Assembly (NCBI GenBank): GCA_037308085.1
Contig: CP147779.1
Span: forward strand, 2,624,001-2,688,000
DNA: 64,000 nucleotides
Source: Promethearchaeati archaeon SRVP18_Atabeyarchaeia-1
GTDB lineage: Archaea > Asgardarchaeota > Atabeyarchaeia > Atabeyarchaeales > Atabeyarchaeaceae
Reading direction: 5' to 3'
The notes under the pieces were generated by a model that saw only the letters and a list, made by a program, of their open reading frames with translations, was not told the DNA's origin and made no database searches. Both the position numbers and the translations under genes were made by a program. Below, piece after piece: positions 31,138 through 36,224 of the stretch. The number at the start of each line of letters is the position of its first letter. Positions within the stretch are counted from its first letter, which is position 1.

Positions 31138-32631
31138 CTAGCTCTTCTCCACCCATGAGAATTTCCGCTGAAACGTTTTTGGATAGTATAGCTTCCAGTC
31201 GTAATCTACTTTCTTTCCCCAATTATAGTATATTCTTGGGTCTATGTAGCTCTTGAGGGATGTTCTGAGGTTATAGTTACAGGTCTTGGTCATCAAGTCT
31301 ATCTTAAGATCGAGTTCTCTGGCATGTTTCTTCGAACGCTCGTCGTCTTTCTGCCTGAGCGCGTTCAACGTTTCCTTCTTTTTCGCTAAGCTCTGATCCC
31401 AGTTCTTGGGCAGCTGCCTCTTGTGGTTAAGTTCTTCTGCCGCACGGAGGTTCGCGGTAGTCGCTTCATACTTTTTCTTTATCGGTGCGTCGTCTTTAGT
31501 AACCGCTGACTCGTCAAGGTATTTTCTGACAATTCTGGATCCATGGAAGGTCCTGAATACCTTGGCTGTCAGCCCTGGTAGCACATCGCTCAAGAAGCGC
31601 CTTACGTTGTCAGATTTGACACCCTCAAAAATGGGGGAGGTAGCCGCTGCGATGAATTCCCTGATATTACTCACTACTTGCTCCTTAAGCTCCACATTCC
31701 TGACCCATCGGACTGAGTCCTTCCCCAAGAAATCGAAATTCACGTGGGTGTTATCTATTATTTTCACGTGCTCCGGTCTCAGGGTAGTGGCTCCAACCGT
31801 GTCTGCCTCATCCTTGGCTTTCTCATCACCTACCCGAATCTTCAACTCATTTATCAGGTAGCAAACGGTTGCCACTTTCCTCCTCATCGCGTCTCCTGAG
31901 ACAAGGTTCTTCTCTATGTGATCCTTCAGCTTTCCGAATCTCGTTTCAAGCTTGTTTGCCAAGTCGAACTTCCTTTTTTCCCGCTCCTGCTTGACACTTA
32001 CTGTGTCAGCCAGCCAAATGTACTTTACTTTGTGACTGAGTTTGTCGTCCCATTTGGCTATCCACATGCTATCAGATTGCCAGACAGTTTCTTTCCAGCT
32101 GCCTTCAGGCCTAGTAGCATCGGGGGACAGATTGAGTGTGACGTCTTCTTGGCTTGGTCCCTCTTTCCATCGACCACGCAGTGGGTGCTCTCCCCTACCC
32201 ATGAATATGGAAGACGGCTCCCCAACGTAGTTGCCAAGTTCAACCTTGTTGCCATCGAGAGTGGCGTATCCATAATCTTCCTTGTTCTTTTCTCGCTTGG
32301 CCTTCCGATCCGCAGCCAGCTTCTTCTTTTCTTCCTTAGGCATGTTCAGCTTCTTTGCCTTTTCCTCATCTACGGCTTTTTGGATTTCAGAGAAGTCGAT
32401 GTCCTCTCTCTTGTAATCGGCACTTGGTCCCAAGGCATTTGAGAAGTCTTTGAAGAAATTCTCGACGAACAGGTTATCTTCAACGTAGACGGTCCCCTGC
32501 TTCTTGACCCAAGCAACTGCTATCTCTTCTTGCTTGGGGTTAAGTCTGACCTTCTTTCCTCTTACTATTATGGAAAAACCCTTGGACTCATACGTTGGGA
32601 TCAAAATGCCTTTGTGAATTAGTTGCTTCAA
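31138..32631 (-). CDS. top1: DNA topoisomerase IB (eukaryote-like)
   Basis: GRGEHPLRG, IRVGDEK..DEADTVGA, FDFLGKDS, AKVFRT, LNH, SLKSYIDPRI (catalytic Tyr). Confidence 0.95.
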   Translation of the reverse strand: MKQLIHKGILIPTYESKGFSIIVRGKKVRLNPKQEEIAVAWVKKQGTVYVEDNLFVENFFKDFSNALGPSADYKREDIDFSEIQKAVDEEKAKKLNMPKEEKKKLAADRKAKREKNKEDYGYATLDGNKVELGNYVGEPSSIFMGRGEHPLRGRWKEGPSQEDVTLNLSPDATRPEGSWKETVWQSDSMWIAKWDDKLSHKVKYIWLADTVSVKQEREKRKFDLANKLETRFGKLKDHIEKNLVSGDAMRRKVATVCYLINELKIRVGDEKAKDEADTVGATTLRPEHVKIIDNTHVNFDFLGKDSVRWVRNVELKEQVVSNIREFIAAATSPIFEGVKSDNVRRFLSDVLPGLTAKVFRTFHGSRIVRKYLDESAVTKDDAPIKKKYEATTANLRAAEELNHKRQLPKNWDQSLAKKKETLNALRQKDDERSKKHARELDLKIDLMTKTCNYNLRTSLKSYIDPRIYYNWGKKVDYDWKLYYPKTFQRKFSWVEKS

Positions 32632-33015
32632 GGTGTCAAGGGCACCCCGCAAAATCTAGATGATGATCGAGACTGCTCCTCCAAGGGAGCCCGGAAATTT
32701 CGATACTTGGTCATCCGTTTCCTAATGGTTACAAGCCACTTTCCCATCTGATATTGGTTCTTGTCAATACTGTTGCAGTAGCTGAGAATGTGCATTCCTC
32801 GCCTAATATCGATGGGCAGACTTTAAAACTCTTGTGTGGATCGCCTGTAGCGTCTTTCTAGACTAATACTACAAAAGCCATTTCTCCTAGGTACTTGCCT
32901 GTCAAGGCTAACAGGTCGGGATTGAAACTACCTTTTTAGGGTTTGCTTCATAACAAAGTAATAGCTTAAGATGGTGGTTCTCCTCCTCAGGAGGAGTAAG
33001 GAGGCTCCTACTAGA

Positions 33016-34976: not shown

Positions 34977-35339
34977 CTACTTCTTGGCAACTTTCTTGGC
35001 AGGCTTCTTCTCCTTCTTCTGCTTGCCTTCCTCTTCCTTCTCAAGTTCCTCGAATGGAACGGGTGGTGGAGTTGTGAACATAGTCCAGCCAATCCACATG
35101 CCGATCACGAGCACCAATGTCAGCGCGAGCCATATGGGTATCGCTAGGAACCAATACCATGAAGGTGGCGGAGATGCCAACGGAACAACTGCCCACTCTT
35201 CGACGTGTGGGAGGAACCATAAGAAGCTTGGCCAAAAGTGCCCGAACGCAGCAACAATGATGACGTTCCACGTGTAGTACAGGACCACCAGTAGACCCAA
35301 GATGAAGATCAGGAAGCCTATAATCTTGTCCTTTGCCAT
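34977..35339 (-). CDS. Small two-TM membrane protein, DPM2-like
   Basis: MAKDKIIG...YYTW, AIP...IG.WIGWTM, then TTPPP and a charged tail. Confidence 0.75.
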   Translation of the reverse strand: MAKDKIIGFLIFILGLLVVLYYTWNVIIVAAFGHFWPSFLWFLPHVEEWAVVPLASPPPSWYWFLAIPIWLALTLVLVIGMWIGWTMFTTPPPVPFEELEKEEEGKQKKEKKPAKKVAKK

Positions 35340-35482
35340 TTGCGTAGCCCTTCTCTTACCTTCTGCTTCTATCTTGTTTAAATTGTTTGAGCTTTTCTTA
35401 CGCGTGGACGATATATAAGGCTTTAGTAAACCAATAGGCATATTAGCTCATGACCACAATTGTGGTCTCGGTGAGAGAGAGA

Positions 35483-35819: not shown

Positions 35820-36224
35820 TCACTTTGCGGGTTTTTTCTTAGGCGTTTCCCCCAACACCTTGAGCACTGCTTCAGCAGCTCTGTTGGTTTCGTCTATCAG
35901 GATCCCCAGCTTAGCCTCCCGTTTTGCCATCAAAGTGACAACGTTGGTATCGCCCACCCTGCCGATCACTATGTACCCGTCTTGACACTTTATGAAGACC
36001 TGCTCAAGAGTGCCCAGCTGAAGAACTTCTACGCTCATCTTGCCCAAGTTGAGCAGGGTTGCCGTTATGGCAGCAACGATTTCCTGCGGTGAGTCCCTCT
36101 GCAGGGCATTGGCAATCATTATCCCATCATAGCTGACAAGCGCCGCTCCCTCTATCTCAGCCGTCTGAGACGCGACTCCTCTCAGCACATCCTTAAGCTT
36201 ATCCAAATCGAACGAGGAACTCAT
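35820..36224 (-). CDS. Roadblock/LC7 (MglB-like) domain protein
   Basis: IEGAALVSYDGIMIA, VAAITA.LL.LG, LG.LEQVFIK..DGYIVI, AKLG. Confidence 0.9.
   Translation of the reverse strand: MSSSFDLDKLKDVLRGVASQTAEIEGAALVSYDGIMIANALQRDSPQEIVAAITATLLNLGKMSVEVLQLGTLEQVFIKCQDGYIVIGRVGDTNVVTLMAKREAKLGILIDETNRAAEAVLKVLGETPKKKPAK

What the first reader, a model, noticed from the sequence alone, without database searches (positions are those of the whole stretch)
34977..35339. Archaeal protein resembling eukaryotic DPM2 (Dol-P-Man synthase / GPI-GnT regulatory subunit)
Seen: DKIIGFLIFILGLLVVLYYTWNV...FLP...WFLAIPIWLALTLVLVIGMWIGWTM plus a Lys-rich tail. Human DPM2, recalled from memory, reads [23 protein letters not shown]...FLP.[26 protein letters not shown] plus a Lys-rich tail. 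The D..vG, YYT(x)W, FLP, AIP and G.xI..xM elements align in order over two TMs. The TTPPP plus acidic tail resembles a small archaeal membrane family usually left hypothetical or misannotated. Inference: a possibly overlooked eukaryotic-signature protein linking that family to the ER glycosylation/GPI machinery.
Basis: partly seen in the sequence, partly recalled or inferred. Interest (0 to 1): 0.72.

Follow-up and report, generated by a model that had tools for sequence, protein, structure and literature searches.

The report
Asgard DPM2/PIG-P-family membrane hairpin protein
This 120-residue, two-helix membrane protein of an Asgard archaeon belongs to a near-universal archaeal family that is truly related to DPM2 and PIG-P, the small helper subunits of eukaryotic lipid-linked sugar transferases. 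The kinship is already in print, and the archaeal partner enzyme is still unproven.

Summary
The ORF is real: 34977-35339 on the minus strand, 120 aa, two transmembrane helices, a conserved WIGWTM-TTPPPVPFEELE motif and a Lys-rich tail. It is single-copy.

On its own it does not reach Pfam significance (PIG-P 16.8 bits, DPM2 12.2 bits). Close relatives do pass Pfam's curated cut-offs: P0253 scores 53.9 bits on DPM2, and P0014 and P0174 score 39.8 and 42.9 bits on PIG-P. The window protein is 42-44% identical to them, so family membership holds by transitivity.

The family is in 342 of 400 Asgard genomes, and also in proteins that sources label Bathyarchaeia and Korarchaeota. It is usually misnamed "transcriptional regulator" or "phage holin".

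It is not overlooked. A 2025 Nature paper roots the DPM2/PIGP duplication in Asgard archaea. This scan holds 48 earlier findings in at least 42 genomes that match the words DPM2, PIG and archaeal, and the eight I read describe this family.

The function is inferred. The genome encodes a DPM1-type synthase without transmembrane helices. It has no detectable PIG-A-specific domain, PIG-C or DPM3.

In other Asgard families the gene lies beside sugar-activating enzymes and glycosyltransferases. That includes an AglJ-like GT2 without transmembrane helices directly upstream in one family.

Most likely it is a membrane accessory subunit of a lipid-phosphate sugar transferase. It is a new member of a known kind and of modest interest.

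The parts
34977..35339 (-). Coding sequence of the 120-aa DPM2/PIG-P-family hairpin protein (P0001); stop codon at 34977-34979
   Evidence: Translation. Relatives at 61-85% identity. One copy per genome in 342 of 400 Asgard genomes. The only PIG-P model hit in the six-frame translation of the 2.8-Mb genome.
35250..35324 (-). Transmembrane helix 1 (about residues 6-30), including the conserved G8 and the Y21-Y22-T23 motif
   Evidence: Hydropathy windows above 1.6. AF2 helix 2-35. G8 is invariant across 89 diverse members. Y22 is invariant and T23 invariant or nearly so in the two narrower alignments.
35163..35249 (-). Extracytoplasmic loop (residues 31-59), variable in length and sequence among relatives; it has no basic residue
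   Evidence: Alignments; charge count; AF2 confidence is lower here (block means 67-71).
35076..35162 (-). Transmembrane helix 2 (about residues 60-88), ending in the nearly invariant W-I-G-W-T-M
   Evidence: Hydropathy. AF2 helix 60-89. G84 is invariant and W82 and I83 nearly invariant in 89 diverse members.
35040..35075 (-). Conserved juxtamembrane motif TTPPPVPFEELE (residues 89-100) on the predicted cytoplasmic side; a candidate docking site for a soluble partner
   Evidence: T90, P91 and P93 are nearly invariant in 89 members. T90, P91, P93, V94, P95, E97, E98, L99 and E100 are invariant in the close clade. In P0014 this region aligns with the PIG-P model (5-108 to 3-101 of 121) but lies beyond the end of the DPM2 match (4-79 to 2-71 of 75). 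The docking role is inference.
34980..35039 (-). Charged C-terminal tail (residues 101-120): an acidic patch, then a Lys-rich end. The Lys-rich end is particular to this clade; most other members have acidic tails
   Evidence: Alignments; sequence listing; AF2 helix 96-111 with low confidence.
35340..35449 (.). Divergent intergenic region shared with the UPF0175 gene. On the minus strand a TATA-like TTATATA lies at 35412-35418 and TTTAAA at 35377-35382, upstream of the ATG at 35339
   Evidence: Direct reading of the sequence. Promoter function is not tested.

Best explanation
The gene encodes a small membrane hairpin of the archaeal branch of the DPM2/PIG-P family. Both ends face the cytoplasm and two helices cross the membrane.

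Most likely it is a non-catalytic accessory subunit of a membrane-associated glycosyltransferase that loads a sugar from a nucleotide sugar onto a lipid phosphate carrier. The best candidate partner in this genome is the 227-aa DPM1-type dolichol-phosphate hexose synthase, which lacks transmembrane helices of its own (G000:C1:2529803-2530486, outside the window).

In this picture the hairpin sits in the membrane. Its conserved cytoplasmic TTPPPxPxEE segment and charged tail hold or stabilise the soluble catalytic subunit at the membrane surface, next to the lipid acceptor. One protein would then do part of what DPM2 and DPM3 do together for human DPM1.

Shown: the gene, its topology-like features, family membership by transitive homology, the near-universal Asgard distribution, the presence of a DPM1 homologue without transmembrane helices, and the recurrent sugar-pathway neighbours in other lineages.

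Inferred: the physical partnership, the docking role of the motif, and the identity of the sugar and the lipid.
For: Homology:
- Relatives pass Pfam's curated cut-offs for DPM2 and PIG-P, and P0001 is 42-44% identical to them.
- All 15 clade members hit PIG-P and 12 hit DPM2. Of 89 diverse members, 50 hit PIG-P and 38 hit DPM2.
- In the reverse direction, the PIG-P model hits 106 of 400 Asgard genomes at E<=0.001 and none of 14 control genomes. Where I could compare the listed coordinates, most matches fall on this gene.
- Kay et al. 2025 place Asgard as the lineage of descent of DPM2 plus PIGP.

Partner:
- The genome's 227-aa GT2 has no hydrophobic segment.
- It matches Pyrococcus Dol-P-Man synthase 5mlz at E 1.7e-38 over residues 25-250 of that 374-residue chain. 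That excludes the C-terminal part, which forms the transmembrane domain.
- It sits in a glycosylation island.
- Gandini et al. 2017 (PMC5526996) note that the two transmembrane helix pairs of the Pyrococcus enzyme could correspond to DPM2 and DPM3.
- Lombard 2016 (PMC4973528) infers a proteoarchaeal origin of Dpm1 and suggests the form without a transmembrane helix is ancestral.

Context in 43 Asgard loci from 19 taxonomic families:
- In family f4 an AglJ-like GT2 without a detected hydrophobic segment (my reading of the printed sequence) ends 27 bp upstream on the same strand, and an AglG-like GT2 lies downstream.
- An archaeal GlmM-type sugar-phosphate mutase lies within about 2 kb in 5 families (14 loci).
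- A GlmU-like nucleotidyltransferase is adjacent in f12.
- Two GT4 genes and a PGI/PMI-type isomerase are adjacent in f17.
- A polysaccharide deacetylase is adjacent in f14.
- Outside these 43 loci, three other members have a sugar nucleotidyltransferase (two cases) or an epimerase (one case) directly downstream.
Against: - The window's own gene has no sugar-related neighbour. It lies between an MFS transporter, a UPF0175 gene and a Roadblock/LC7 gene, and close relatives share that order.
- A GT2 is adjacent in only 1 of 43 Asgard loci.
- The hairpin is also present in lineages whose DPM1-like frame is long (365 aa in f4, 436-449 aa in f11). Its presence therefore does not track a synthase lacking transmembrane helices.
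- The commonest neighbours point to UDP-GlcNAc supply (Arch_GlmM above its curated cut-off, a GlmU-like gene) rather than to GDP-mannose.
- No fusion to any glycosyltransferase was found (weak evidence).
- The PIG-P model gives false hits of about 25-27 bits on unrelated membrane proteins. The protein's own 16.8 bits therefore mean nothing alone.
- 45 of 89 family members also hit the Holin-X model.
- No DPM3 homologue is detectable.
- No experiment on any archaeal member turned up in my literature searches.
Confidence: 0.5

Rival explanations
1. It is a PIG-P-like subunit of a GT4 (PIG-A-like) GlcNAc transferase that makes GlcNAc-archaetidylinositol, an archaeal forerunner of the first step of GPI synthesis.
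For: - PIG-P is the top Pfam family for the protein and for its clade.
- In P0014 the post-TM2 tail aligns with the PIG-P model but lies beyond the end of the DPM2 match.
- The commonest neighbours elsewhere supply UDP-GlcNAc: an Arch_GlmM equivalog at 554 and 449 bits against a cut-off of 439, and a GlmU-like gene in f12.
- Two GT4 genes flank the gene in f17, and a polysaccharide deacetylase is adjacent in f14.
Against: - No PIG-A-specific domain (PF08288) and no PIG-C (PF06432) was found in this genome, which is 97% complete.
- The f17 GT4 shows no PIGA domain at E<=1e-5.
- The f14 deacetylase belongs to Polysacc_deac_1, which from my knowledge is a different family from PIG-L.
- I did not search whether Asgard archaea make GlcN-inositol lipids.
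Confidence: 0.17
2. It is a conserved membrane hairpin with a role unrelated to glycosyltransferases, for example a ribosome- or translocon-associated small membrane protein. The DPM2/PIG-P relationship would then be only ancestral or partly compositional.
For: - In 22 of 43 Asgard loci (8 families) the gene lies a median 2.5 kb from the S19 gene that heads the S19-L22-S3 ribosomal protein cluster.
- In f6 it is adjacent to the NAC (nascent-polypeptide-associated complex) gene, and in f11 to ribosomal protein L10/P0.
- The tail is highly charged.
- 10 of 15 clade members give weak TMEM208/SND2 hits.
- The PIG-P model has false positives up to about 27 bits.
Against: - Members reach 53.9 bits on DPM2 and 42.9 bits on PIG-P, well above those false positives and above the curated cut-offs.
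- Sugar-pathway genes often lie between the hairpin and the ribosomal cluster, so the ribosomal proximity may be inherited gene order.
- No Sec, SRP or signal-peptidase gene appeared among the neighbours I annotated.
Confidence: 0.15
3. It is a phage-type holin (Holin-X, Pfam PF07332), as NCBI names some relatives.
For: - 45 of 89 family members hit PF07332, best E 1.7e-7.
- The Bathyarchaeia-like members P0017-P0019 carry that Pfam hit, and P0018 is named 'phage holin family protein' by NCBI.
Against: - It is single-copy and found in 342 of 400 Asgard genomes, next to housekeeping genes. No phage or lysis gene appeared in the contexts I annotated.
- In the window's own clade the holin hits are few and weak (6 of 15, best 3.2e-4), against 15 of 15 for PIG-P.
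Confidence: 0.02

Closest known systems
PIG-P (Pfam PF08510), small subunit of the eukaryotic GPI-GlcNAc transferase complex
   Same: Two transmembrane helices followed by a cytoplasmic tail. It is the top Pfam family for this protein and its clade. The alignment is collinear over both helices and into the tail (residues 6-112 to model positions 4-95 of 121). The relatives P0014 and P0174 pass the curated cut-off.
   Different: This protein scores only 16.8 bits against a cut-off of 39.3. The genome lacks a detectable PIG-A-specific domain and PIG-C. The archaeal family has its own nearly invariant WIGWTM-TTPPP motif. I could not compare that motif with eukaryotic sequences.
DPM2 (Pfam PF07297), regulatory subunit of eukaryotic type-II dolichol-phosphate-mannose synthase, also found in GPI-GnT
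   Same: A two-helix hairpin. The relative P0253 scores 53.9 bits against a cut-off of 27.3 and is 44% identical to this protein. A DPM1 homologue without transmembrane helices is encoded in the same genome. Published gene trees put Asgard sequences as the lineage of descent of DPM2 plus PIGP.
   Different: This protein scores 12.2 bits (E 0.22). It is 120 aa with a 32-residue charged tail and a longer outer loop, while the DPM2 model has 75 positions. No DPM3 is detectable in the genome. No interaction data exist.
C-terminal transmembrane domain of Pyrococcus furiosus type-III Dol-P-Man synthase (PDB 5mlz)
   Same: It is proposed in print to correspond topologically to DPM2 plus DPM3, with helices 1 and 3 resembling human DPM2. 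It would play the same role as a membrane platform for a DPM1-type catalytic domain.
   Different: It is fused to the enzyme rather than encoded separately. Profiles of the archaeal hairpin family do not list 5mlz even at E<=10.
Holin-X (Pfam PF07332, Phage_holin_3_6)
   Same: A two-helix membrane protein of similar size. Half of the broad family gives sub-threshold to borderline hits.
   Different: The genes are single-copy and near-universal, with no phage context in the places I annotated. The window's clade matches it only weakly.

Membership tests
Archaeal WIGWTM-TTPPP hairpin family (unnamed; the archaeal branch of DPM2/PIG-P) | About 100-120 aa; N-terminal M-x-K-D-K/Q-x-x-G; two transmembrane helices; W-I-G-W/Y-T-M-x-T-T-P-P-P after helix 2; a charged tail | tested here: met
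   All elements are present in P0001. A profile of the broad family scores this ORF at E 1.5e-36.
PIG-P (PF08510) | Score at or above Pfam's gathering cut-off (39.3 bits) | tested here: not met
   P0001 scores 16.8 bits, E 0.0066. The relatives P0014 (39.8) and P0174 (42.9) pass, so the link is transitive only.
PIG-P (PF08510) | Two transmembrane helices plus a cytoplasmic tail, aligned collinearly with the model | tested here: met
   Residues 6-112 align to model positions 4-95 of 121. Hydropathy and the AF2 hairpin agree.
PIG-P (PF08510) | Works within a GPI-GnT complex with PIG-A, PIG-C, PIG-H and PIG-Q | tested here: not met
   No PF08288 (PIGA) or PF06432 (PIG-C) match in the genome, which is 97% complete. 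PIG-H and PIG-Q were not searched.
DPM2 (PF07297) | Score at or above Pfam's gathering cut-off (27.3 bits) | tested here: not met
   P0001 scores 12.2 bits, E 0.22. The relatives pass: P0253 at 53.9, P0014 at 32.6, P0174 at 31.3, P0192 at 29.7 and P0171 at 29.0.
DPM2 (PF07297) | Co-occurs with a catalytic DPM1 that lacks transmembrane helices | tested here: met
   A 227-aa GT2 with no hydrophobic segment matches Pyrococcus DPMS at E 1.7e-38 over residues 25-250 of 374 only.
DPM2 (PF07297) | Co-occurs with DPM3, the tether of DPM1 | tested here: not met
   The best PF08285 hit has E 0.2 and falls on no credible ORF.
DPM2 (PF07297) | Binds and stabilises Dol-P-Man synthase and enhances its activity | not testable with these tools
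   This needs co-purification, co-folding or enzyme assays.
Holin-X (PF07332) | Encoded in a phage or prophage lysis cassette | tested here: not met
   The neighbours I annotated are cellular genes in every context examined. It is single-copy in 342 of 400 genomes.

The most novel reading that the evidence does not exclude
The archaeal hairpin is the single ancestral membrane subunit of a two-part dolichol-phosphate hexose synthase. Its invariant cytoplasmic TTPPPxPxEE segment docks a DPM1/AglJ-type GT2 that has no transmembrane helices. The split, human-like type-II architecture would then predate eukaryotes, and DPM2 and PIG-P (and functionally DPM3) would be later specialisations of it.
Probability: 0.3. 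Interest if true: 0.6.

Novelty: new member of a known kind. Interest (0 to 1): 0.3.

Why it matters
DPM2 and PIG-P are among the least understood subunits of the ER machinery that makes Dol-P-Man and GPI anchors. An abundant, single-copy archaeal counterpart, together with a DPM1-type enzyme that lacks membrane helices, offers a simple two-protein system for asking what these hairpins do. It also bears on whether the split synthase architecture existed before eukaryotes. For genome annotation, the family should stop being named "transcriptional regulator" or "phage holin". The evolutionary link itself is already published, so this locus adds one more member and some context, not a discovery.

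Tried and rejected
- **Structure searches.** Foldseek against the PDB gave nothing below E 2.8. The ESM Atlas shape search returned only the archaeal family itself plus unrelated helical proteins. A two-helix hairpin is too simple for fold comparison to discriminate.
- **Sequence and profile searches of PDB chains.** No DPM2 or PIG-P chain was found, and the Pyrococcus DPMS transmembrane domain was not matched.
- **Profile-profile comparison with eukaryotic DPM2/PIG-P.** I could not do this. Neither the 1.8-billion-representative search (best 150 listed) nor the word-indexed searches returned a eukaryotic sequence, and I did not type sequences from memory.
- **Phyletic complementarity.** One Asgard genus seemed to lack the hairpin with the narrow profile (6 of 25). 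It has it with the broad profile (23 of 25), and its DPM1-like frames are short, about 240 aa. No complementarity can be read from this.
- **Rosetta-stone fusions.** The search of longer proteins gave only a hairpin fused to an HhH/DUF4332 domain (P0281; P0111 has a similar C-terminal extension). No glycosyltransferase fusion was found.
- **GDP-mannose theme among neighbours.** My first reading was "PMM, PMI and a kinase". NCBIfam weakened it: the mutase is an archaeal GlmM equivalog, the kinase is a ribokinase, and the "PMI" is only a weak cupin match.
- **DPM3 candidate.** The PF08285 hit at E 0.2 falls on no credible ORF.
- **Decoy control.** Too few small two-helix decoys were on hand for a designed control. 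The accidental false positives of the PIG-P model served instead.

Full report
**1. What is there**

- Hydropathy shows two membrane segments, at about residues 6-30 and 60-88. The 29-residue loop between them has no basic residue.
- The 32-residue tail carries 10 K/R and 7 D/E.
- AlphaFold2, run on a 15-sequence alignment, gives a helical hairpin plus a short tail helix, mean pLDDT 73.7.
- The ORF could start 34 codons earlier. All relatives begin M-A/S-K-D-K, and a TATA-like TTATATA lies 79 nt upstream of the ATG at 35339, inside the putative extension.

The organism is an Asgard archaeon.
- The nearest relative that carries an organism name is Candidatus Njordarchaeum, at 67% identity.
- The window also holds a eukaryote-type topoisomerase IB and a Roadblock/LC7 protein.
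- The genome is a single 2.8-Mb contig, about 97% complete.

**2. The family**

A search of 5.8 billion proteins found 14 close relatives at 40-85% identity. A profile of them found 310 representatives at E<=0.001 among 1.8 billion clusters.
- Members are about 100-120 aa.
- They share M-x-K-D-K/Q-x-x-G, two helices, then W-I-G-W/Y-T-M-x-T-T-P-P-P-x-P-x-E-E and a charged tail.
- G8 and G84 are invariant, and W82, I83, T90, P91 and P93 nearly invariant, across 89 diverse members.

Distribution:
- The narrow profile hits 342 of 400 Asgard genomes, and 84 of 90 high-quality ones, mostly one copy per genome.
- One genus seemed to lack it (6 of 25). It has it with the broader profile, 23 of 25.
- Source names show the family also in Bathyarchaeia and Korarchaeota.
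- A 493-member ESM Atlas cluster, mostly Bathyarchaeota, is the nearest structural neighbour.

Sources name members "transcriptional regulator", "phage holin family protein", "PTS IIC component" and the like. These names are evidently wrong for a two-helix membrane protein without a DNA-binding domain.

**3. Is it related to DPM2/PIG-P?**

Alone, P0001 is not significant: PIG-P 16.8 bits (E 0.0066), DPM2 12.2 bits (E 0.22), PIG-Y E 0.47.

This matters because the PIG-P model gives false hits. In a six-frame scan of 400 Asgard genomes it hit an MFS transporter and a 256-aa multi-helix protein at about 25-27 bits.

At family level the evidence is solid.
- All 15 close relatives hit PIG-P and 12 hit DPM2.
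- Of 89 diverse members, 50 hit PIG-P and 38 hit DPM2.
- Individual members pass Pfam's curated cut-offs. P0253 scores 53.9 bits on DPM2 (cut-off 27.3). P0014 scores 39.8 on PIG-P (cut-off 39.3) and 32.6 on DPM2. P0174 scores 42.9 on PIG-P.
- P0001 is 44% identical to P0253 (E 5e-17) and 42% identical to P0014 (E 8e-19 database-wide).
- In reverse, the PIG-P model's only hit in the whole 2.8-Mb genome is this gene.
- Across 400 Asgard genomes the model matched 106, against none of 14 control genomes. Where I could compare the listed coordinates, most matches fall on this family's gene.

One caveat remains. 45 of 89 members also hit the Holin-X model PF07332. Either that model is related or it is promiscuous for hairpins. 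In the window's own clade those hits are few and weak.

I could not run a profile-profile comparison with eukaryotic sequences, because none was delivered by the tools.

**4. Already known?**

Yes, in substance.
- Kay et al. 2025 (PMC12872463) state that the DPM2/PIGP duplication is of archaeal origin.
- Their supplement lists the PF07297 tree with "Asgard" as lineage of descent.
- Most family members listed carry a precomputed PF08510 hit.
- An Atlas cluster of Thorarchaeota proteins is auto-named DPM2.
- This scan's records hold 48 earlier findings in at least 42 genomes that match the words DPM2, PIG and archaeal. The eight I read describe this same family on other DNA.
- By contrast, a 2008 paper stated that accessory GPI-GnT proteins had not been found in archaea (PMC2446393).
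- My literature searches turned up no experiment on any archaeal member.

**5. What does it do?**

Evidence from the genome itself:
- It has six GT2 genes.
- One is 227 aa with no hydrophobic segment.
- That one matches the Pyrococcus Dol-P-Man synthase at E 1.7e-38 over residues 25-250 of the 374-residue chain. The match therefore stops before the C-terminal part, which forms the transmembrane domain. This is a human-like, type-II DPM1 architecture.
- It lies about 129 kb from the hairpin gene, in an island with another GT2, a 1139-aa multi-helix protein and an LPG_synthase_TM-family protein.
- No PIG-A-specific domain, PIG-C or credible DPM3 was found.

Published context:
- Gandini et al. 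2017 proposed that the two helix pairs of the Pyrococcus enzyme correspond to DPM2 and DPM3.
- Lombard 2016 inferred a proteoarchaeal origin of Dpm1.

**6. Gene neighbourhoods**

The window's gene has uninformative neighbours: an MFS transporter, UPF0175 and Roadblock. Close relatives share that order.

I fetched about 14 kb around the gene in 40 further Asgard genomes and added the two earlier loci L003 and L012 and the window itself. That makes 43 loci from 19 taxonomic families. I then clustered the neighbours.

Recurrent or adjacent genes:
- An archaeal GlmM-type sugar-phosphate mutase in 14 loci of 5 families, at a median 1.7 kb. It passes its NCBIfam equivalog cut-off.
- A GlmU-like nucleotidyltransferase in f12.
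- Two GT4 genes, a second hairpin paralogue and a PGI/PMI-type isomerase in f17.
- A SIS-domain protein plus the mutase in f27.
- A polysaccharide deacetylase in f14.
- A cupin with a weak PMI-like domain plus a ribokinase in f19 and f20.
- In f4, an AglJ-like GT2 without a detected hydrophobic segment ends 27 bp upstream on the same strand, with an AglG-like GT2 downstream.
- Three members outside these 43 loci have a sugar nucleotidyltransferase (two cases) or an epimerase (one case) directly downstream.

By my count at least 11 of the 19 Asgard family-level contexts hold a sugar-activation or glycosyl-transfer gene next to or near the hairpin. Related genomes share gene order, so these are not independent events, and I ran no formal test.

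The theme is nucleotide-sugar supply and glycosyl transfer in general. It leans to UDP-GlcNAc as much as to GDP-mannose.

A second recurrent neighbour is the S19-L22-S3 ribosomal protein cluster, in 22 loci of 8 families. The NAC gene is adjacent in f6. I read this as inherited gene order, but I keep a ribosome- or translocon-related role as a rival.

**7. Verdict**

| Question | Result |
|---|---|
| Observation | Confirmed |

| Reading of the function | Probability |
|---|---|
| Membrane accessory subunit of a lipid-phosphate sugar transferase, best candidate partner the DPM1-type GT2 | about 0.5 |
| PIG-P-like helper of a GT4 GlcNAc transferase | about 0.17 |
| Role unrelated to glycosyltransferases | about 0.15 |
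| Holin | about 0.02 |

The remaining probability is unassigned.

Novelty: a new member of a known kind. Interest: modest, 0.3.

Noticed in passing
window 31138-32652 (-) and 35820-36224 (-): A eukaryote-type DNA topoisomerase IB (Topoisom_I_N, Topoisom_I and Topo_C_assoc domains, E down to 1e-58) and a Roadblock/LC7-domain protein flank the region. From my knowledge both are usual Asgard 'eukaryotic signature' genes. The same gene order is kept in the close relative L007.
   Followed up: partly
own genome outside the window, G000:C1:2529803-2536285 (locus L050:5804-12286): A glycosylation island. It holds the 227-aa DPM1-type GT2 without transmembrane helices (5mlz E 1.7e-38), a divergent 303-aa GT2, and a 1139-aa protein with about 12 hydrophobic segments and no Pfam hit (possibly a divergent oligosaccharyltransferase or similar). 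It also holds an LPG_synthase_TM-family membrane protein, and an IS605 OrfB/Cas12f-like TnpB gene lies beside it.
   Followed up: partly
L003, L066-L086, L096, L100-L102 (Asgard loci fetched here): In 22 of 43 loci from 8 Asgard families, the hairpin gene lies a median 2.5 kb from the S19 gene at the head of the S19-L22-S3-L29 ribosomal protein cluster. Sugar-metabolism genes often lie in between. In family f6 it is adjacent to the NAC gene. This may be ancestral gene order or a functional link.
   Followed up: partly
L100:6983-7309 (+) and L100:7434-7715 (-): A convergent pair of hairpin paralogues (E 2.3e-27 and 1.6e-14 to the family profile). Two GT4 glycosyltransferase genes flank it on one side and a PGI/PMI-type isomerase on the other.
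   Followed up: partly
L104:5241-8055 (-): In Asgard family f4 the hairpin gene is sandwiched, on one strand, between two GT2 genes. An AglJ-like GT2 of 239 aa without a detected hydrophobic segment ends 27 bp upstream, and an AglG-like GT2 of 316 aa lies downstream. This is the clearest operon-like link to a Dol-P-hexose synthase seen here.
   Followed up: partly
L105:3878-4648 (-) and L106:1759-2982 (+): The Pfam PIG-P model gives false hits of about 25-27 bits (per-genome E about 1e-5) on a 256-aa multi-helix protein recurrent in one Asgard genus and on an MFS transporter. This is a useful yardstick: weak PIG-P hits on membrane proteins are not evidence by themselves.
   Followed up: yes
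proteins P0111 (289 aa) and P0281 (292 aa): Rare forms in which the hairpin carries a long C-terminal extension. P0281 has precomputed HHH_5 and DUF4332 hits. P0111 has a similar extension that I did not scan. The extension follows the charged tail, which I take to be cytoplasmic.
   Followed up: no
family profile A2 against PDB chain 6bmm_A (human DHHC20), residues 7-95: The best, non-significant PDB hit of the broad family profile (E 0.076) is the first two transmembrane helices of the DHHC20 palmitoyltransferase. It includes a W-x-Y-W-x-T-x-F-T-S-P-x-x-P stretch after helix 2 that resembles WIGWTM-TTPPP. This is probably chance.
   Followed up: no
(source names of family members): Public annotations of this family are inconsistent and wrong for a two-helix membrane protein. 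They include 'transcriptional regulator' (NCBI), 'phage holin family protein', 'PTS IIC component', 'formate hydrogenlyase subunit 3' and 'Ste14 methyltransferase'.
   Followed up: yes
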